IMG/VR virus record: IMGVR_UViG_3300014827_000001
Coordinates: 1 to 59,958 of that record
DNA length: 59,958 nt
Source: a virus
Lineage: Duplodnaviria > Caudoviricetes
Strand: one strand, 5' to 3'
This document shows positions 3,175 through 43,237 of the stretch, piece after piece; position 1 is the first letter of the stretch, and each line of letters begins with the position of its first letter. The notes below the pieces were generated by a model. It did no database searches. It was not told the origin of the DNA and saw only the letters and a program-made list of their open reading frames with translations. The position numbers and the translations under genes were made by a program.

Positions 3175-4007
3175 GCATCACAACAGAAGAAGACGTGGAC
3201 GCGGCTCTGGCCGCACTGGCAGCGCAGGCTGAGGCCGCTGTGGCTGCCAAGCCCAAGACCAGGGTAGCCAAGAAGCCTGCCCCCACCAAGGATCTTTTCG
3301 ACCTGTCTACCATCTGCAACATCACCAAGCCCCGTAAGGCTGACACCACCTTCAGCCTCCTGCTGGCTGGCCTGCCCAAGTCGGGCAAGACCCTGCTGGC
3401 TGGCACGGCCAACGAGGTGGAAGCACTCTCCCCGGTCCTCCTGTTGGCCCTTGAAGACGGGTCCAGTGTGCTGGCACGGGATTACCCGGACATGGACGTG
3501 ATCGAGCCAGAGAACTGGGTTCAGGCCGCTGGCATCATCGAAGCTGTGGCCGAGGGCAAGACCAAGTACCGGACCATGATCGTGGACACCCTCGGGGAAC
3601 TTCAGGAACACATGAAGGCCCACATCACAGCAGATGGCACCAAGGAAATGCGGATTCAGGACTGGGGCACCATCAAGGACAACACCATCGGCGTGGTCAA
3701 GCTGATGCACCGCTCCCCGGTCAACGCTATTTTCATCACCCACTCCGAAGAACTCCGGGATGAGAACACCGGAGCCAGCCGTATCCAGCCGTACCTGCTG
3801 GGCAAGGGCAGCCTCGGGGAAGTCCCCAAAATCGTGGACATCATCGCCTACCTCGCGGTGGCTCAGGACAAGAAGACCAAAGAGAACTTCCGCGTCCTCC
3901 AGACCGGGCAGGACGGCAAGATTCTGGCCGGGGACCGTTTCGGGACGCTGGACTTCCAGATTATCAACCCCGACATGAGGACCATCTTTGAGCAGCTTAC
4001 GGGGTAG
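3171..4007 (+). CDS. Sak4/RecA-like AAA ATPase (recombinase)
   Basis: Walker A GLPKSGKT, Walker B MIVDT, FITH; between exonuclease and SSB. Confidence 0.85.
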   Translation: MSITTEEDVDAALAALAAQAEAAVAAKPKTRVAKKPAPTKDLFDLSTICNITKPRKADTTFSLLLAGLPKSGKTLLAGTANEVEALSPVLLLALEDGSSVLARDYPDMDVIEPENWVQAAGIIEAVAEGKTKYRTMIVDTLGELQEHMKAHITADGTKEMRIQDWGTIKDNTIGVVKLMHRSPVNAIFITHSEELRDENTGASRIQPYLLGKGSLGEVPKIVDIIAYLAVAQDKKTKENFRVLQTGQDGKILAGDRFGTLDFQIINPDMRTIFEQLTG

Positions 4008-4533
4008 CCGGGGGCAGGGCATTTACGCCCTGACCATCGAGGACAAGCTGGCTAGGTACACCGTTCCGGGTGATAACGGTTGCATCGAGTGGATCGGCAC
4101 CCTAAACGCCAAAGGCTATGGAACTGCGGGGTACGAGGGTAAGAACTGGATGGCTCATCGCCTGATGTACACCCACTTCGTAGGGGAGATACCCGAAGGC
4201 ATGGTCATTGACCACCTTTGCCGGAACCACGCTTGTGTGAATATCGAACACCTGGAGGTGGTGACCAATGAGGAAAATCTTGCTCGCGGTCTACCACCTT
4301 GGGGCTCGAAGCCAGTTACTCACTGTCCGAGCGGGCACGAGTACACGGAGGAGAACTCACTCCCCAGTAAGGCAGGCAGTAAGTGGTGCCGAATCTGCAG
4401 GCAACTCCAGCACCTCGCCAGATACAAACCTAAGAAGCCGTCCACTATCGCCAAGCATGCTGCGCTCTACACGGAGTTATCCACGATGGGTGAAATTTAT
4501 GAGCAATTGACCAGTGACGCAACCGAATCGTAG
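3988..4533 (+). CDS. HNH homing endonuclease
   Basis: CIEW..GYG..AHR..DHLCRNHACVNIEHLE..N; C-terminal THCPSGH..CRIC; TTG start with GAGGA upstream. Confidence 0.88.
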   Translation: MSSLRGSRGQGIYALTIEDKLARYTVPGDNGCIEWIGTLNAKGYGTAGYEGKNWMAHRLMYTHFVGEIPEGMVIDHLCRNHACVNIEHLEVVTNEENLARGLPPWGSKPVTHCPSGHEYTEENSLPSKAGSKWCRICRQLQHLARYKPKKPSTIAKHAALYTELSTMGEIYEQLTSDATES

Positions 4534-4541
4534 TGCTAAGC

Positions 4542-4573
4542 TTTTCACTATCGCTTACTAAGTCTGTAAGTTT
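4542..4573 (+). promoter_or_regulatory. Putative promoter of SSB gene
   Basis: CTGTAAGTT at 4565-4573, same as in promoters at 368-376 and 41772-41780; AC-rich leader follows. Confidence 0.5.
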
Positions 4574-4618
4574 CTCCAACACAACACATACACACCAAAC
4601 AAGAAGGAAGTAACCACC

Positions 4619-5200
4619 ATGGCACGTCTCTCACTCAATGTGGACCAGGAAACCGTAGATTCGTCAGGACGCGAGTTCGAGCCGGTTCCGGTAGGCACCT
4701 ACACCGTCAGCATCTACGCCATCACCAACGATGAGGTGAAGAACGGGGCCAACAAGGGCAAGCTGCGCCTGAAGTTCCAGTTCCGCATCGTGGACGGCGA
4801 GGAAGCCCCCGATGGCTCCAAGCAGGGCAACCGCCGCCTGTTCGCAGACATCAACGCCTTCGAGGGCACGGACAAGAAGACCGGCAAGCCCACCCCGCCG
4901 TATGACCTGCTGGCGCTTGCCAAGGCTCTGGGCACCAGCGCTGAGGAACTGGCGGACCTCGACACGGACGACTGGCTGCAGGAGGAACTTCAGGTTGCCG
5001 TCACCCACACCATCAAGCAGGTGCAGGTCGATGGTGTGTGGGTCGATACCAAAAACCCCGTTCTCTACAAGGAAAAGGTCCGTGGCTTCCGCTCACTGGA
5101 TTCCGTGACCACCTCGGCAGCAGCCACCGCCACTGTTCTGGGCAAGGCACCGTCAGCGGCTCCCAAGGCCAAGGCAGCCGGAGCCAAGTTCAAGCTCTAG
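4619..5200 (+). CDS. Single-stranded DNA-binding protein (DUF669-like)
   Basis: FEPVPVGTY..KFQFRI..GNRRLF pattern; position after Sak4-like gene. Confidence 0.7.
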   Translation: MARLSLNVDQETVDSSGREFEPVPVGTYTVSIYAITNDEVKNGANKGKLRLKFQFRIVDGEEAPDGSKQGNRRLFADINAFEGTDKKTGKPTPPYDLLALAKALGTSAEELADLDTDDWLQEELQVAVTHTIKQVQVDGVWVDTKNPVLYKEKVRGFRSLDSVTTSAAATATVLGKAPSAAPKAKAAGAKFKL

Positions 5201-5207
5201 CAGTACA

Positions 5208-5252
5208 GCCAGCCTGTGTAGGCACACAGCCCGTTCGAGACGGGCGCTGGCA
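5208..5252 (+). ncRNA. Minimal tRNA-like element (acceptor stem, one hairpin, T arm)
   Basis: GCCAGC/GCTGGC-A; CTGTGT-AGGC-ACACAG; GCCCG-TTCGAGA-CGGGC. Confidence 0.6.
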
Positions 5253-5266
5253 CTAGTTACAAAATT

Positions 5267-5290
5267 AGCCAACGGCTCACCCCGTTGGCT
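5267..5290. other. Hairpin upstream of primase
   Basis: AGCCAACGG-CTCACC-CCGTTGGCT. Confidence 0.5.
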
Positions 5291-5339
5291 TAGCTTTCAA
5301 AGGAGCCGGGGCAATGCGTTACATCGCAGGAATCACAGC

Positions 5340-7562
5340 ATGAGCCAGCAGGAAGAGTTCACAAAGTTCCTCTGGAAAGGGCTTCAGGGCAGGGCTGTTA
5401 TCGCCCGCACAGACTCCACGGGAGCGCCGAGCATCCAGAGGTTTTTCAGCTGGCCGGAGCAGAGTGAGCAACTGCTGGCCCTCACCGCCAAGCTGACTGC
5501 AGAGGATGTCTACACCTCACCGTGCCTGTTCAAGGGCACCGCAGGAGCGCGTAAGTCTCTGGCACGGGCCATCCAGGTAGTTCACGCCGACGCGGACACC
5601 TTCAGCATTGACGATGCCCTGCTGCCGCCCTCTGCCATTGTTCAGACTTCGGACAGCAAGACCCATCTGTACTGGAAAATCACCGACTGCCACGATCCGG
5701 CCCTGATCGAACCGCTGGCTCACAGCGTCTCCAACGCACATGACAAATCTGTCACAGGACTTGACAACGGCTGGGCGGTCAACAAACTACTCCGGGTTCC
5801 AGGCACCTCCAACACCAAGTACGATGAGCCCTTCCTTGTGAGCTTCGAGGACACCGGCCACGCCTACACATTGGACGAGTTTGCAGCCGTCTACCCTCCC
5901 GTGGAGTCGCGGACCGCAGTGGCGTCTCTAAGGCAGATGGGCGCACTGCCCAGCAAGGGGGATGCACTCCGGTCCCTGAAGGCCTCCCCGCAACTAATGC
6001 AACTGCTGAACAAAACCACAACGGGCAACGTAGACCCTTCTAATGGCCGCTTCCTCCTCCAGAACGAACTGTTCAGGGCAGGAGCCACGGATGAGGCAGT
6101 CTTTGTGATCCTGTGGGACCACCCGTTCCGGTCGGACAAGAACGAGAACAACATCTGGCAGGACATCCTGCGGGCACGGTCCAAGTCCGAGCTTGGAGAC
6201 CCCGAGGAAGACCCCGGCTACGAGCCAACCGTCACCGTGGAGCCCACGGCCAAGGACAAATCCGTGGATTTCCTCACGCTGGCTGAGAAGGCCTCACTGG
6301 GCTCCACCTTCATTGACGACTACATGGCGTGGGGCATGTCCAAGACGGACGCCAGCCCCGAGTACCACGTTGCAGCAGCCTTCACGATCCTCTCCACCGT
6401 GTTCTCCGACTTCGGCCACGCGGTCCCCAAGTTTGGGCGGCTCCCGCTCAACCTCTGGTTCATGGTGCTGGGGGAGACCACCAGGAGCCGGAAGTCCACC
6501 ACCCGAGCCTTGGGCATCTCAATGATCAAGGCGCTGGCCGTGATCCCCGACGCCGATGTGGCCGGAGAGCTTGACTACAACTATGACCTCGGCTCTGACT
6601 TCACCCCCGAGGCTCTGGACAACGAGCTCCTGAAGCGGCCCAACCGGTCCTCCCTGCTGCACCGTGATGAGGCGCAGGGCTGGATTCAGGAAATGGATAA
6701 GAAAGCCTACATGGCAGGAGCCAAGGGCAAGATGACCGAACTGTACGACGGGCATGTGTCCGGCAAGCTGAGGGCCACCGGGGATAACAACCGCCGTGCC
6801 GGGGTGGATATCAGCCTGACCCTGTTCATGATGGGCATCGGCTCCCAGATGTCTGAGTACCTGACGCAGGAGGACTTCCGCTCCGGGTTCCTGACACGGT
6901 TCATCTACATCTCCGCTGAACCCCCCAGCCGCTCTGCAGCCTCTGACTGGCTGGAGCAGCAAGACCTGAATGAGGTCAAGACAGGGGACGTGGTGTTCAC
7001 CGCCATGCTCAGGAGGATCGAGACCGCGCGCGAGCACTGGGCTGGCTTCAATGCCCCCACAGCACCCACCAAGGCCGTCCCCTGTGTCCCGGAAGCATGG
7101 CTGAGGCTGAACCTGTTCATCACCCAGGTTTTGGACGCCGCAGAGGGCCACCAGCGCCACGCCATTATCGAGGCCGCGTCTGACCGGCTCTCCAAGTCCA
7201 TCCTGAAAGCCGCCACCCTGCTGGCCATGCTGGATTGCTGTGATGAGGTGCAGGTTCCCCACATGCTGGCAGCCATCAACTACGCCAGTTCATGGTTCGG
7301 CCACATGGTCACCATGGCCAACAAGATTTCCGACTCCTCATGGATGCGCAGGCAGACCCAGGTTGAGGATTTCCTGATCGAAAAGGGCGGAACGGCCAAG
7401 TGGGAAGTCGTTTACCGGCATTTCCGCTCAGACCTTCGGGCCGATGAGTTCCTGAAGATCATCCAGTCCCTGACCGAGGCCGGAATCATCCACGTATCAC
7501 TCCCGGATAAGGGTGTCCGCTGGATCACCCGCATTGACATTGATGAGGAAATTGCAGCATGA
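5340..7562 (+). CDS. DNA primase/helicase (RepB-like primase plus DUF3987-like ATPase)
   Basis: HADAD, TS..KTHLYW, LLRVPGT.NTKY; C-terminal GETTRSRKST and RDE motifs. Confidence 0.85.
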   Translation: MSQQEEFTKFLWKGLQGRAVIARTDSTGAPSIQRFFSWPEQSEQLLALTAKLTAEDVYTSPCLFKGTAGARKSLARAIQVVHADADTFSIDDALLPPSAIVQTSDSKTHLYWKITDCHDPALIEPLAHSVSNAHDKSVTGLDNGWAVNKLLRVPGTSNTKYDEPFLVSFEDTGHAYTLDEFAAVYPPVESRTAVASLRQMGALPSKGDALRSLKASPQLMQLLNKTTTGNVDPSNGRFLLQNELFRAGATDEAVFVILWDHPFRSDKNENNIWQDILRARSKSELGDPEEDPGYEPTVTVEPTAKDKSVDFLTLAEKASLGSTFIDDYMAWGMSKTDASPEYHVAAAFTILSTVFSDFGHAVPKFGRLPLNLWFMVLGETTRSRKSTTRALGISMIKALAVIPDADVAGELDYNYDLGSDFTPEALDNELLKRPNRSSLLHRDEAQGWIQEMDKKAYMAGAKGKMTELYDGHVSGKLRATGDNNRRAGVDISLTLFMMGIGSQMSEYLTQEDFRSGFLTRFIYISAEPPSRSAASDWLEQQDLNEVKTGDVVFTAMLRRIETAREHWAGFNAPTAPTKAVPCVPEAWLRLNLFITQVLDAAEGHQRHAIIEAASDRLSKSILKAATLLAMLDCCDEVQVPHMLAAINYASSWFGHMVTMANKISDSSWMRRQTQVEDFLIEKGGTAKWEVVYRHFRSDLRADEFLKIIQSLTEAGIIHVSLPDKGVRWITRIDIDEEIAA

Positions 7563-7984
7563 GCGCCCACGTAGATGACATCTTCACCGCTGACCTGACC
7601 AACGTGCAGGACACGCGCCTGAACGGCCTCATGCGGGCCAAGGAACTCTGGCAACTCTCTGTGCTGGCAGACCGCAAGCAGCGGCTCCTCATGGCACACG
7701 AACTGCATGGCTTCGGGCTGTTCTCCCTGAACCAGCTGGCCAAGATTACCCGCCTGAGTGTTCCCACCGTGGCCCGCCACATGAAAAAGAATGCGATTGG
7801 TGGGAAATTCCAGCCCGAGGTCTTGTCCTCACTCGTGTATCTTCGTAAGCTGGTCATCATAGATACACACATACCAGCCTCTTTCATACAGGGGGCGGTA
7901 GCCACCGGCACATCGGTGGGCACCATCTCCCGGCTGACCGGGGCATCTGAAACCTCCCTCTACCAAAAGACAAAGCAATTCTAG
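7559..7984 (+). CDS. Putative HTH DNA-binding protein
   Basis: SLNQLAKITRLSVPTVARH and SVGTISRLTGASETSLY HTH-like segments. Confidence 0.6.
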   Translation: MSAHVDDIFTADLTNVQDTRLNGLMRAKELWQLSVLADRKQRLLMAHELHGFGLFSLNQLAKITRLSVPTVARHMKKNAIGGKFQPEVLSSLVYLRKLVIIDTHIPASFIQGAVATGTSVGTISRLTGASETSLYQKTKQF

Positions 7985-7993
7985 GAGCAAACA

Positions 7994-8203
7994 GTGAGCG
8001 AAGTTGACGTTGTAAACCACCCTCCCCACTACACAAATCATCCCAGTGGTGTTGAGTGCCTGACCATTACCCGCCACATGGGGTTCAACCTCGGGAACGC
8101 CTTCAAGTACATCTGGCGGGCAGACCTCAAAGGCAACGCCATTGAGGACTTGGAGAAGGCCGCTTTTTACATCAACGACGAAATCATAAGGCGGAAGATG
8201 TGA
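7994..8203 (+). CDS. DUF3310-family protein (T7 gp1.7-like)
   Basis: VNHPPHY..ECL..GFNLGNAFKYIWRA..K..EDLEKA. Confidence 0.85.
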   Translation: MSEVDVVNHPPHYTNHPSGVECLTITRHMGFNLGNAFKYIWRADLKGNAIEDLEKAAFYINDEIIRRKM

Positions 8204-41093: not shown

Positions 41094-41157
41094 TGGGGTG
41101 CTGGGACTCGAACCCAGCGAGCTCCTGCCCGGTTATCACACCGTATTCGCTCACCCC
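41094..41157 (-). ncRNA. tRNA-like RNA 1 (reduced, no canonical D or anticodon arm)
   Basis: GGGGTG/CACCCC-A acceptor; CTGGG-TTCGAGT-CCCAG T arm; 64 nt. Confidence 0.6.
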
Positions 41158-41245
41158 TTGGCCCCTGCGTCCGGCCTATACGTTTACCGGCATTAGGTTC
41201 TTCGGGGCTTTTCCCTGAGTTCCTACTTATCGGTCACTCAGGTAG

Positions 41246-41364
41246 TGAAGCCAGCAGGATTCGAACCTGCGAGTTTCCTAACGCTTACACCAAGTCACAT
41301 AGAGGGATATCGCCCTCAGTCCCTGCGCGGTCGTTAGGTGCGTGATGCCCCTCGCCTCAGCTTC
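41246..41364 (-). ncRNA. tRNA-like RNA 2 with ~48-nt insertion in place of anticodon loop
   Basis: GAAGCTG/TGGCTTC-A; CCTAACG/CGTTAGG; GCAGG-TTCGAAT-CCTGC. Confidence 0.65.
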
Positions 41365-41833: not shown

Positions 41834-43237
41834 ATGAGCAAGCCCAGAGCAGTCGCGTATGTCAGAGTCTCAAAAGAGCGGGACGGGGGCGTGTCCCCGG
41901 AAATCCAGCTGGACTCCATACAGGCACACTGCAAGCGTCTCGGCTACGACATCGTGGAGACACTGGAAGACCTTGACCTCTCGGGCCGGTTCTGGAAGCG
42001 CCGTCAAGTCGAGCAGGCCATTGCCATGATCGAAAACAAGCAGGCCGATGTGCTGGTGGTCTGGAAGATTTCACGGGTGAGTCGCAACCGGATGGACTGG
42101 GCGATTGCCGTTGACCGGGTGGAGAGCATTGGGGGTCGTCTGGAGTCGGCAACGGAGCCGATGGACACCACCACAAGCTCAGGCCGGTTCGCGCGCGGGA
42201 TGCTGGCAGAGCTGGCCGTCTTTGAGTCGGAGCGGATCGGGGACACCTGGAAAGAAACCCACGCGCGCAGGATTCGGAACGGCCTGCCCCACAACGCGCC
42301 CAAACACTTCGGGTACACCTACACCAAGGAGGCCGGATATGCCCCTGACGCGCACGAGGGGGCTGTTCTGCGGCAGTTGTACGTCCGCTACGTCCAAGGG
42401 TCAAGCATGAACGAATTAGGCGCTTACGCGGCCTCTGAGGGCTTCGAGCCGGAGACCGGCTGGCGCAAGGGCACCATCAGGAGATTCTTGGATAAGGGCT
42501 TCGGAGCTGGCTACCTCTGGGTCAAGGGCGAACTCATCCGTGGGGCACACGAAGCAGTGGTCTCCGAGGCCGAATGGATGGCCTACCGGGTCCGCCGTGA
42601 GGAGCGCGGGAGCCGTCCACGGGCCGAGAACTCCCCCTATGCCTACTCCGGTCTCCTGAAATGCCACTGCGGGGGAGTCATGGGAGGCGGGAACAGCAGG
42701 CGCGGGGACAAAATCTACAAGCGGTACGTGTGCCTGCTGGCCGATCAGAAGGGTACACACCCCTACAACACCATCTCGGAGCCGTACGTGGAGGCAGCAG
42801 TGCTCGCGTGGCTGGAATCGGTGGCTGCTGATCTGGACGCAGCTGCATCGACGGTCAAGGCTGAGCCGGTAAGTGTCAACATCCGGGCCAAGTCCTTACA
42901 GATCAAGGCCGATCTGGTCAAGACCAACAACCGGCTGGACGCTCTGACGATCAAGAACCTTGACGGCGAGGTCTCCAATGAGGTCTACACCCGGCTCAAA
43001 GCCAAACTGGAGGCTGACAAGGCCGCTCTGGAGTCCCGGCAGCGACTTGTGGAGGTCAACGCCACGGTTCGGCCCCAGGTGATCGTTCCGGCCCTTTTGG
43101 CAGGCTGGGCGGACGCCCCGGCCCGTGTGAAGCGCGAAACCCTGCGTGCTCTGGGCGTTTCCATCCACCTGAGTGACTGGGAAAACGGCGTAAAGACGGG
43201 GAAACGGACCATTACGGTGCTCGATCCTTGGGTGTAG
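41834..43237 (+). CDS. int: Large serine integrase
   Basis: YVRVS catalytic Ser, SRVSRN, recombinase domain, zinc ribbon (LLKCHCG..YVC), coiled coil. Confidence 0.95.
   Translation: MSKPRAVAYVRVSKERDGGVSPEIQLDSIQAHCKRLGYDIVETLEDLDLSGRFWKRRQVEQAIAMIENKQADVLVVWKISRVSRNRMDWAIAVDRVESIGGRLESATEPMDTTTSSGRFARGMLAELAVFESERIGDTWKETHARRIRNGLPHNAPKHFGYTYTKEAGYAPDAHEGAVLRQLYVRYVQGSSMNELGAYAASEGFEPETGWRKGTIRRFLDKGFGAGYLWVKGELIRGAHEAVVSEAEWMAYRVRREERGSRPRAENSPYAYSGLLKCHCGGVMGGGNSRRGDKIYKRYVCLLADQKGTHPYNTISEPYVEAAVLAWLESVAADLDAAASTVKAEPVSVNIRAKSLQIKADLVKTNNRLDALTIKNLDGEVSNEVYTRLKAKLEADKAALESRQRLVEVNATVRPQVIVPALLAGWADAPARVKRETLRALGVSIHLSDWENGVKTGKRTITVLDPWV

What the first reader, a model, noticed from the sequence alone, without database searches (positions are those of the whole stretch)
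5208..5255. 45-nt minimal tRNA mimic between the SSB and primase genes
Seen: 7 nt after the SSB stop, a three-way junction with a 6-bp acceptor, one short hairpin and a canonical T arm (GCCCG-TTCGAGA-CGGGC), ending A-CTA. The acceptor plus T stack totals 11 bp, as in RNA 1 at 41094-41157. Inference: an RNase P/Z mRNA-processing signal that uncouples high SSB output from primase expression, or a fourth member of the tRNA-mimic family.
Basis: partly seen in the sequence, partly recalled or inferred. Interest (0 to 1): 0.7.

Follow-up and report, generated by a model that had tools for sequence, protein, structure and literature searches.

The report
Mini tRNA-like RNA after phage SSB
A 45-base RNA shaped like the top half of a tRNA sits just after a phage's single-strand-binding-protein gene and keeps its shape in every relative found, in a slot where sister phages carry real tRNA genes, so it is probably a cut-here or end-protection signal borrowed from tRNA processing.

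Summary
At 5208-5252 (+) there is a three-way junction: a 6-bp acceptor-like stem, a 4-5-bp stub hairpin, a 5-bp T-arm-like hairpin with loop TTCGAGA, then A-C.

- **Position.** It starts 7 nt after the stop of a DUF669-type SSB gene and ends about 16 nt before a terminator-like hairpin.
- **Conservation.** All 30 contigs of the clade that include the SSB 3' end carry it (primase 57-99% identical). One copy is split by an HNH gene. In the 22-sequence model alignment, 96.7% of cells pair and 12 of 16 pairs show compensatory changes, against 0 of 500 shuffles.
- **Not a tRNA.** ARAGORN and the Rfam tRNA model do not match it, and there is no anticodon loop.
- **tRNA-like ends.** Most relatives have 7 + 5 stacked pairs. 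A73-C74 is near-invariant, and 18 of 30 tRNA genes in an Arthrobacter MAG likewise encode C74 without C75.
- **Synteny.** Sister lineages hold tRNA genes or larger tRNA-like units in the same slot.

My best reading (about 0.45) is a miniaturised tRNA-derived processing and 3'-end module, like plant-mitochondrial t-elements or secG-leuU. The cleavage itself is untested. The terminator, not the element, is the simpler cause of SSB/primase uncoupling.

The parts
4619..5200 (+). SSB-type gene (193 aa, DUF669 / phrog_378 'single strand DNA binding protein'); stop TAG at 5198-5200
5201..5207 (+). 7-nt spacer CAGTACA between the stop codon and the element. It is 7-9 nt in the relatives read, and (T)AC at -3/-2 is conserved.
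5208..5213 (+). Acceptor-like stem, 5' strand GCCAGC (7 nt, GCCCAGC or GCCCGTG or GCCTGTG, in most relatives)
5215..5226 (+). Stub hairpin TGTG-TAGG-CACA, standing in place of the D and anticodon arms. All 4 pairs show compensatory changes in relatives.
5229..5245 (+). T-arm-like hairpin GCCCG-TTCGAGA-CGGGC (5 bp, 7-nt loop)
5246..5251 (+). Acceptor-like stem, 3' strand GCTGGC, contiguous with the T stem as in tRNA
5252..5253 (+). A73-C74-like unpaired nucleotides. In the 22 aligned relatives A is present in 21 and C in 22; the next base is T in 21 of 22. No CCA is encoded.
5254..5266 (+). A-rich single-stranded spacer between the element and the terminator hairpin
5267..5298 (+). Terminator-like hairpin AGCCAACGG/CCGTTGGCT with a weak T-rich tail. 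In relatives it is replaced by unrelated GC hairpins with clear T runs at the same distance.
5300..5343 (+). RBS AAGGAG and a 9-codon leader ORF (5314-5343, MRYIAGITA) whose TGA overlaps the primase ATG
5340..7562 (+). DNA primase gene (740 aa; phrog_10514, DUF3987)

Best explanation
The element is a miniaturised, tRNA-derived RNA module in the 3' UTR of the SSB mRNA. It keeps the part of a tRNA that the end-processing enzymes read: a 6-7-bp acceptor stem stacked on a 5-bp T arm, with G1-C72, A73 and C74. A 4-bp stub replaces the D and anticodon arms.

**Proposed mechanism**
1. Transcripts from the SSB gene stop at, or read through, the terminator about 16 nt downstream.
2. The host's 3'-end tRNA maturation activities remove the trailer at A5252/C5253.
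3. RNase P cuts 5' of G5208.

This would set the 3' end, and so the lifetime, of the SSB message. It would cut read-through SSB-primase transcripts in two and release a roughly 45-nt tRNA-like RNA.

**Shown:** the structure, its conservation, its fixed place after SSB and before a terminator, its tRNA-gene-like ends, and tRNA genes in the same slot of sister phages.

**Inferred:** both cleavages and their effect on expression.
For: **Structure and conservation**
- The three-way junction is the minimum-energy fold, z = -3.34.
- In 13 relatives, 95% of cells pair and 11 of 16 pairs show compensatory change. No shuffle of 500 reaches this, and slid controls pair 25-57%.
- In 22 model-aligned relatives, 96.7% pair and 12 of 16 pairs are compensatory.

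**Distribution**
- The model R1 finds exactly one copy in each of the 30 contigs of the clade that include the SSB 3' end (primase 57-99% identical). 29 copies are intact and 1 is split by an HNH gene.
- Where methylase or HNH genes have been inserted, they lie between the terminator and the primase, so the element stays with SSB.

**tRNA-gene-like ends**
- The acceptor has 7 bp in most relatives, giving 7 + 5 = 12 stacked pairs with no nucleotide between the T stem and the acceptor 3' strand.
- A73 is present in 21 of 22, C74 in 22 of 22, and no CCA is encoded.
- In an Arthrobacter MAG that carries a relative of this phage, 30 of 30 tRNA genes examined (of 39 tRNA matches in that MAG) encode C74 but only 9 encode CCA. 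18 stop at C74, as the element does. That MAG has a type-A RNase P RNA.
- Bacterial RNase P pairs its L15 GGU with R73-C74-C75 and tolerates extensive truncation of tRNA (PMC4919922, passages).

**Synteny**
- The SSB-primase slot holds 2 tRNA genes in Arthrobacter phages Molivia and Amigo.
- It holds tRNA-Thr plus tRNA-Asn after a tRNA-like unit in L057 and L058, and other three-way junctions ending in A-C in L047, L048, L064, L066 and L088.
- The trailer of Molivia tRNA 1 (A-CTTAG) is the same as the element's in several relatives.

**Known analogues**
- t-elements direct RNase P/Z cuts at mRNA ends (PMC1920247, passages).
- In secG-leuU, an mRNA-tRNA-terminator transcript is cut by RNase P after the terminator is removed, and this governs secG mRNA decay (PMC2241853, abstract and sections 14-15).
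Against: - No transcript ends are known.
- The canonical T loop is kept in only 15 of 22 (TTCGA). L009, L016 and L014 have unrelated loops, and L038-L040 and L021 have altered ones.
- The loop-closing T-stem pair is a conserved C.A in 7 of 21 distinct sequences. This is atypical for tRNA (G53-C61) and would be a G.U on the opposite strand.
- Position -1 is C or A rather than the U that RNase P prefers.
- The window's own stack is 11 bp, not 12.
- RNase P cleavage would leave the SSB mRNA with an unprotected 7-nt tail, which is an odd design for a gene expected to be highly expressed.
- One relative (L004) carries the element split by an HNH gene, so it may be dispensable.
- The RNase Z match in the MAG is below the family cut-off.
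Confidence: 0.45

Rival explanations
1. It is a cis-acting 3'-UTR structure that is not cleaved. It would act as a compact exonuclease barrier or folding unit that stabilises the SSB mRNA 3' end, or work together with (in some lineages, as) the intrinsic terminator.
For: - A terminator-like hairpin follows within 8-24 nt in 24 of 25 relatives.
- In L047, L048, L064 and L066 the analogous three-way junction is followed directly by A-C and a T run, with no separate hairpin.
- An uncleaved tRNA at the 3' end made secG-leuU RNA very stable (half-life 17 min in rnpA49; PMC2241853 section 14).
- The T-loop sequence is dispensable in 7 of 22.
Against: - A plain hairpin would serve as a barrier. This reading does not explain the conserved three-way geometry, the 12-bp stack, the invariant A73-C74, or tRNA genes in the same slot of sister phages.
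- In the window clade a separate terminator already supplies a 3' hairpin.
Confidence: 0.2
2. The product, not the cut, is what matters. A small CCA-tailed acceptor/T-arm mimic is released from an abundant transcript and acts in trans, for example as a decoy or competitor for host enzymes or defence toxins that act on tRNA acceptor ends, or as a substrate for an aminoacyl-tRNA synthetase.
For: - The top of the acceptor (G1-C72, C2-G71, C3-G70) plus A73-C74 is conserved even between clades whose inner parts differ completely.
- The window holds a second RNA of the same architecture at 41094-41157 (-).
- In L057 and L058 the tRNA-like unit coexists with canonical tRNAs, so it is not merely a decayed tRNA.
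Against: - No target is known.
- The phage has no CCA-adding enzyme match of its own.
- The strict linkage to the SSB 3' end points to a cis role.
- L004 lacks an intact copy.
Confidence: 0.15
3. It is a binding site for a phage or host protein on the SSB-primase mRNA, for example for translational autoregulation of SSB or control of the leader ORF and primase. The tRNA likeness would be incidental.
For: - Unpaired nucleotides flanking the helices are conserved: (T)ACC on the 5' side and A-C-T on the 3' side.
- The element starts 7-9 nt after the stop codon in the relatives read. In L007 it starts 7 nt after the stop of an extra mini-ORF.
Against: - No candidate protein was identified.
- The loops, the usual protein contacts, vary freely.
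- This reading does not explain tRNA genes in the same slot elsewhere.
Confidence: 0.08
4. It is a DNA-level signal. A single-stranded DNA fold, possibly on the minus strand, would act as a primase or replisome loading site or as a recombination hot spot in the replication module.
For: - It lies between the SSB and primase genes.
- The conserved C.A at the T-stem closing pair would be a G.T on the minus strand (7 of 21 distinct sequences).
- Compensatory changes cannot distinguish DNA from RNA.
- The region is a hot spot for inserted HNH and methylase genes.
Against: - Plus-strand wobbles also occur: G.U cells in L009 and L016, and a G1.U72 read by eye in L015 and L072.
- There are no iterons or direct repeats, and cumulative GC skew has no extremum at 5.2 kb.
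- The TTCGA loop, the A-C tail and the plus-strand terminator all read sensibly only as plus-strand RNA.
- No tyrosine integrase was found, and the serine recombinase is 36 kb away.
Confidence: 0.07
5. It is a decaying tRNA pseudogene with no present function.
For: Sister phages have tRNA genes, some with abnormal anticodon loops, at the same place.
Against: 12 of 16 pairs are kept through compensatory changes over 57-99% primase identity, and the element is present in all 30 contigs. That is purifying selection on the structure.
Confidence: 0.03

Closest known systems
t-elements of plant mitochondria (tRNA-like structures at mRNA ends; PMC1920247, passages read)
   Same: Both are non-decoding tRNA-like folds with an acceptor stem and a T arm, embedded in mRNA precursors next to coding regions. 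In t-elements the ends coincide with mRNA termini, and RNase P and RNase Z are the proposed or shown cutters.
   Different: t-elements belong to organelles, not a phage, and keep a non-canonical cloverleaf of about 70 nt. This element has only one 4-bp stub and about 45 nt. Its cleavage is untested, and its T-loop motif is kept in only 15 of 22 relatives.
E. coli secG-leuU transcript (mRNA - tRNA - Rho-independent terminator; PMC2241853, abstract and sections 14-15)
   Same: The order of parts is the same: coding region, then a tRNA-shaped unit, then a short A-rich spacer, then an intrinsic terminator. In that system RNase P cleavage follows terminator removal and determines decay of the upstream mRNA.
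   Different: leuU is a full decoding tRNA with encoded CCA. Here the unit cannot decode and encodes only A73-C74.
mascRNA / menRNA (MALAT1 and MEN-beta 3'-end tRNA-like RNAs; Rfam RF01684; PMC4919922 passages)
   Same: A small tRNA-like RNA at the 3' end of a long transcript, released by RNase P and RNase Z. The cut makes the 3' end of the upstream RNA.
   Different: mascRNA is eukaryotic and nuclear, about 60 nt, with a cloverleaf. RF01684 does not match this element; it gives only a weak 16.6-bit match to the other RNA at 41094-41158.
tRNA genes in the SSB-primase slot of Amigovirus (Arthrobacter phages Molivia and Amigo)
   Same: They occupy the same intergenic slot after a homologous SSB gene and before a homologous primase (48-49% identity). 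They have A73-C74 and no encoded CCA, and the trailer of Molivia tRNA 1 is A-CTTAG.
   Different: They are 73-83 nt with D and anticodon arms and pass the Rfam tRNA threshold at 37-42 bits. No sequence similarity to the element is recognisable beyond the ends.

Membership tests
tRNA (Rfam RF00005 / ARAGORN) | Cloverleaf with D arm and an anticodon arm carrying a 7-nt loop; passes the tRNA covariance model | tested here: not met
   ARAGORN finds 0 genes in the window. RF00005 has no match at the element even at E <= 10. The only inner hairpin has a 4-nt loop.
tRNA (Rfam RF00005 / ARAGORN) | 7-bp acceptor stacked on a 5-bp T stem with a TPsiC-type loop, followed by a discriminator | tested here: inconclusive
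   The window has 6 + 5 bp and most relatives 7 + 5. The TTCGA loop is present in 15 of 22. A73 is present in 21 of 22 and C74 in 22 of 22.
t-element-like tRNA-processing signal | tRNA-like fold with acceptor and T arm inside an mRNA precursor | tested here: met
   The three-way junction is supported by covariation. It lies 7 nt after the SSB stop on the coding strand.
t-element-like tRNA-processing signal | Conserved GGTTCRANYCC motif of the T arm (used to find t-elements; PMC1920247) | tested here: not met
   The window reads CCGTTCGAGACGG, so only the GTTCGA core matches. 7 of 22 relatives lack even TTCGA.
t-element-like tRNA-processing signal | Transcript ends coincide with the ends of the element; cleavage by RNase P and RNase Z | not testable with these tools
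   No RNA run was listed. This needs end mapping or an in vitro assay.
Intrinsic (Rho-independent) terminator | GC-rich stem directly followed by a T run | tested here: not met
   In the window the acceptor stem is followed by ACTAGTTACAAAA. The scan flags no plus-strand terminator at the element. A separate hairpin plus T-rich tail lies 8-24 nt downstream in 24 of 25 relatives. Analogous junctions in L047, L048, L064 and L066 are followed directly by a T run.
Phage attP carrying a tRNA 3' fragment | Adjacent integrase; identity to the 3' part of a host tRNA gene | tested here: not met
   No tyrosine integrase was found, and the serine recombinase is at 41834-43237. By my reading, none of the 30 tRNA genes of the Arthrobacter MAG shares more with the element than the acceptor top GCCC...GGGC-A-C.
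mascRNA-menRNA (RF01684) | Match to the family covariance model | tested here: not met
   No match at 5150-5350 at E <= 10.

The most novel reading that the evidence does not exclude
Phages with this replication module carry, at the end of their SSB message, a dedicated class of minimal tRNA-end mimics. These have a conserved G1-C72/C2-G71/C3-G70 acceptor top and A73-C74, and anything from a 4-bp stub to a long anti-SD-like arm inside. They would be released by RNase P/Z, CCA-tailed, and act in trans on enzymes or defence toxins that read tRNA acceptor ends. The 45-nt form here would be about as small as a natural tRNA-shaped RNA gets, and a phage counterpart of mascRNA.
Probability: 0.15. Interest if true: 0.85.

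Novelty: new variant of a known kind. Interest (0 to 1): 0.6.

Why it matters
- **If the cuts occur.** This would be a phage example of 'tRNA punctuation' by a non-decoding mini-tRNA. It would show that RNase P/Z signals can be reduced to about 45 nt in nature and that phages use them to set the output of a replication gene.
- **Evolutionary series.** One genomic slot shows canonical tRNAs, tRNAs with odd anticodon loops, larger tRNA-like units and a minimal three-way junction. This makes the question of what tRNA genes in phage genomes are for, beyond decoding, directly testable.
- **Practical use.** Annotators miss these elements because ARAGORN and Rfam are both blind to them. The covariance model built here finds them cleanly.

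Tried and rejected
- **Close DNA relatives.** Megablast of 4000-8000 against phage records found no match.
- **Known RNA families.** Rfam found nothing at gathering thresholds. At E <= 10 the hits were unrelated weak ones (ssNA-helicase 18.5 bits on the minus strand over the terminator hairpin; a trypanosome snoRNA at 16.8 bits) and no tRNA or mascRNA hit.
- **ARAGORN in mitochondrial mode.** It made 12 calls elsewhere in the window, none at the element or at 41094, and I did not use them.
- **Extra outer helix.** I looked for pairing between the stop-codon region (CTAG/CTAAG) and the 3' tail (CTAG/CTTAG). It fits some relatives but not L039, L044, L010 or L038, so I dropped it.
- **Stop-codon read-through or frameshift driven by the structure.** I rejected this. 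The distance from the stop to the primase ATG is 139 nt in the window and 138 nt in L001, stops are both TAG and TAA, and an in-frame TAG follows after 6 codons in the window.
- **Antiterminator pairing between the acceptor 3' strand and the terminator.** It is possible only in the window, and the terminator stems differ in relatives.
- **Transcript evidence.** No RNA holder was listed.
- **Origin or iteron reading.** I found no repeats and no skew extremum.
- **Phage CCA-adding enzyme.** No PF01743 match.
- **Earlier findings of this scan.** Three look-ups returned nothing.
- **Genus-wide pattern search.** It was answered with a parameter error. I then searched the one MAG through its handle.
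- **Literature.** Six full-text searches listed no paper describing a tRNA-like element downstream of phage SSB genes. Supplements are closed and were not seen.

Full report
**Setting.** The window is a complete 59,958-bp virus record from IMG/VR. Positions 1-11 kb carry a plus-strand replication module:
- a Sak4-like annealing protein;
- an HNH endonuclease;
- a 193-aa DUF669/phrog_378 'SSB' (4619-5200);
- a 740-aa primase (5340-7562);
- a family-A DNA polymerase.

The nearest named phages are Arthrobacter phages of the genus Amigovirus, with about 48-49% primase identity. There is no close DNA match in the phage collection.

**The observation.** TAG at 5198-5200 is followed by 7 nt. Then come GCCAGC (5208-5213), a short hairpin, GCCCG-TTCGAGA-CGGGC (5229-5245), GCTGGC (5246-5251) and A-C-T-A.
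- RNAfold returns the three-way junction as both minimum-energy and centroid structure: -25.7 kcal/mol, z = -3.34, with 1 of 200 shuffles as good.
- My scan for 5-bp stems closing a TTCRANN loop found 3 in the window, against 0.88 +/- 0.96 in 100 simulated sequences. Two of them have an adjoining acceptor closure, against 0.09 +/- 0.29. They are this element and 41094-41157 on the minus strand.
- One correction: G5229 belongs to the T stem. The short hairpin supported by relatives is TGTG/CACA with loop TAGG. RNAfold's 5-bp register in the window is an alternative allowed by the CA repeat.

**Conservation.** Protein-guided searches with the primase fetched relatives from IMG/VR, JGI metagenomes and one Arthrobacter MAG.
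- A 13-sequence MAFFT alignment scored against my structure gave 95% of cells paired and 11 of 16 pairs with changes on both sides. No shuffle of 500 reached this, and slid controls paired 25-57%. RNAalifold found the same three helices independently.
- A covariance model (R1) then found exactly one copy in every contig of the clade that includes the SSB 3' end. These are the window and 17 contigs, 5, 6 and 1. That makes 30 contigs, with primase identity from 57% to 99%.
- Contigs with no R1 hit in this clade begin inside or at the very start of the primase gene and so lack the region.
- On the 22-sequence model alignment, 96.7% of cells pair and 12 of 16 pairs are compensatory. That alignment is fitted to the structure, so the count leans towards it.

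The variants are concrete:

| Part | Variants seen |
|---|---|
| Acceptor | GCCCAGC/GCTGGGC, GCCCGTG/CACGGGC, GCCTGTG/CACAGGC, and the window's GCCAGC/GCTGGC (one pair deleted on both sides) |
| Stub hairpin | TGTG/CACA, TGCG/CGCA, TGTAG/CTACA, CAA/TTG (L018; its fourth cell, G.A, is unpaired) |
| T-stem second pair | C-G, U-A, A-U, U.G |

**What travels with what.** In L005, L014, L017, L039, L040 and L103, extra genes lie between the element-plus-terminator and the primase:
- three different DNA methylase families (PF00145, PF01555, PF02086);
- a weak HNH_3 match in L014;
- unidentified ORFs in L039 and L040.

In L004 an HNH_3 gene sits inside the T arm of the element itself. So the element belongs to the SSB 3' end, not to the primase 5' end. 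One lineage survives with it broken.

Downstream, 24 of 25 relatives scanned have a hairpin with a T-rich tail starting 8-24 nt after A73, usually 16-18 nt. The stem sequences are unrelated between lineages. In the window this hairpin (5267-5290) has a weak tail, and the tool flags it only on the minus strand.

After the terminator come an RBS and a 9-10-codon leader ORF whose stop overlaps the primase ATG.

**How tRNA-like is it?** It is not a tRNA. ARAGORN and the Rfam tRNA model find nothing, even at E <= 10 on a 200-nt or whole-genome search. The only inner loop has 4 nt.

It does keep the features of the acceptor/T-arm half:
- 7 + 5 stacked pairs in most relatives (6 + 5 in the window);
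- no nucleotide between the T stem and the acceptor 3' strand;
- G1-C72;
- A73 in 21 of 22, C74 in 22 of 22, then T in 21 of 22.

The last point matches the likely host. The one genome-collection hit is a contig binned in an uncultured Arthrobacter MAG. This is binning evidence only, though it agrees with the hosts of the nearest named phages. Of that MAG's 39 tRNA matches, 30 were fetched and examined. All 30 encode C74, only 9 encode CCA, and 18 stop matching CCA after C74, exactly as the element does.

The MAG has a type-A RNase P RNA at 297 bits. Its RNase Z-like ORF scores below the equivalog cut-off. Bacterial RNase P pairs L15 GGU with R73, C74 and C75, prefers U at -1, and tolerates extensive truncation of tRNA (PMC4919922, passages).

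Points against strict mimicry:
- TTCGA is kept in only 15 of 22;
- the loop-closing pair is C.A in 7 of 21 distinct sequences;
- position -1 is C or A.

**Synteny with real tRNAs.**
- In Molivia and Amigo the SSB-primase spacer holds two tRNA genes. GenBank annotates them as Gly and 'undetermined', or Gly and Val. ARAGORN reads three of the four with abnormal anticodon loops. All pass Rfam at 37-42 bits. All four have A73-C74 without CCA, and Molivia tRNA 1 is followed by CTTAG, the element's own trailer.
- L050 and L056 are alike.
- At 49-50% primase identity, L047, L048, L064 and L066 have three-way junctions of different sequence right after the SSB stop. L047 still begins CAGTACC-AGCCAG. 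These are followed directly by A-C and a T run.
- At 35-38% identity, L057-L065 and L089-L092 have a tRNA-like unit of about 75 nt. It has the form GCCC(C/T)...T arm...GGGGC-A-C, with the A-C followed by C-A in L065. Its middle loop contains CUCCUUU. In L057 and L058, canonical tRNA-Thr and tRNA-Asn follow it. L088 has another small form.
- Nonagon and L094 have only a long hairpin.

So the slot after SSB has held tRNA-shaped RNAs across the whole span of this primase family, and the window clade has the smallest version.

**Mechanism.** The order of parts is coding region, tRNA-shaped unit, A-rich spacer, terminator. This is the order in E. coli secG-leuU. There RNase P separates mRNA from tRNA after the terminator is removed. 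The freed secG mRNA decays within 30 s, and the uncut RNA is very stable (PMC2241853, abstract and sections 14-15). Plant-mitochondrial t-elements show that non-decoding tRNA-like folds can do the same job (PMC1920247, passages).

I therefore favour a processing and 3'-end module read by the host tRNA-end machinery, at about 0.45. What is shown is the structure, the selection on it, its position, its tRNA-gene-like ends and the synteny. The cuts and their consequences are inferred.

The element may add control of SSB mRNA lifetime, or yield a small RNA.

**Rivals.**
- An uncleaved stabiliser or terminator partner: 0.2.
- A trans-acting acceptor-end mimic: 0.15.
- A protein-binding site: 0.08.
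- A DNA-level fold: 0.07.
- A dead pseudogene: 0.03.

Wobble pairs do not settle the strand. On the plus strand there are G.U cells in L009 and L016, plus a G1.U72 that I read by eye in L015 and L072, where the model misaligns it. On the other side is the conserved C.A, which would be G.U on the minus strand. Gene orientation, the plus-strand terminators and the loop and tail sequences favour plus-strand RNA.

There are no iterons, no skew extremum and no nearby integrase.

**Novelty.** No Rfam family matches. Six full-text searches listed nothing on tRNA-like elements downstream of phage SSB genes; supplements could not be seen. I rate it a new variant of a known kind, namely tRNA-like processing elements. 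It is notable for its size, its phage setting and the evolutionary series around it.

Noticed in passing
window 41094-41157 (-) and 41254-41270 (-); ORF 41834-43237 (+): A second three-way junction has a 6-bp acceptor, one long arm, T arm CTGGG-TTCGAGT-CCCAG and A-C. A further T-arm hairpin (GCAGG-TTCGAAT-CCTGC) lies nearby. Both lie about 0.6 kb upstream of a 467-aa serine recombinase gene. ARAGORN and the Rfam tRNA model do not call them (best 14.5 bits). They could be attP-linked tRNA fragments or true tRNA-like genes.
   Followed up: partly
window 5300-5343: RBS AAGGAG and a 9-codon leader ORF (MRYIAGITA) whose TGA overlaps the primase ATG (ATGA). Relatives keep a 9-10-codon ORF starting MRY, MCN or MYN, which suggests translational coupling of the primase to a leader peptide.
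   Followed up: partly
L004 2372-2915: A 148-aa HNH_3 endonuclease gene is inserted inside the T arm of the element. The 5' half lies at 2372-2404 and the 3' remnant (GCGCTGAGGCACTTA) just before the terminator. The insert starts with its own TTCGAGT-loop hairpin.
   Followed up: partly
L005, L014, L017, L039, L040, L103 (between terminator and primase): Three different DNA methylase families (PF00145, PF01555, PF02086), a weak HNH_3 match (L014) and an unidentified ORF fused in frame to the leader-ORF start (L039, L040) have been inserted at the same point. It is a hot spot for accessory genes.
   Followed up: partly
L057-L065, L089-L092 (upstream of primase): The distant clade has a tRNA-like unit of about 75 nt after SSB. 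Its middle loop carries CUCCUUU, which is complementary to the AAGGAGG ribosome-binding site of the primase. An upstream conserved AATGGGCAA could compete for the acceptor 5' strand GCCCC. No Rfam family matches.
   Followed up: no
L047, L048, L064, L066 (after SSB stop): Three-way junctions are followed directly by A-C and a T run with no separate hairpin. They may be branched intrinsic terminators, or tRNA-like units with tRNA-gene-style T-run trailers. A host tRNA-Lys gene has the trailer ACTCTTTT.
   Followed up: partly
G001 (Arthrobacter MAG), loci L104-L133: All 30 tRNA genes examined encode C74, although only 9 encode full CCA (18 have C only, 3 have CC). This suggests a requirement for C74 at the precursor stage.
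   Followed up: partly
L007 2790-2864: An extra 8-codon ORF with a strong RBS (MWRWIISH) lies between SSB and the element. Its TAG is again exactly 7 nt before the element.
   Followed up: no
L028 2615-2768, L030 2090-2251: ARAGORN reads three of the four Amigovirus tRNAs in the SSB-primase slot with abnormal anticodon loops (4-base 'ccaa', 2-base 'ga' and 'ca'), although GenBank names them Gly or 'undetermined'. They may be non-decoding as well.
   Followed up: no
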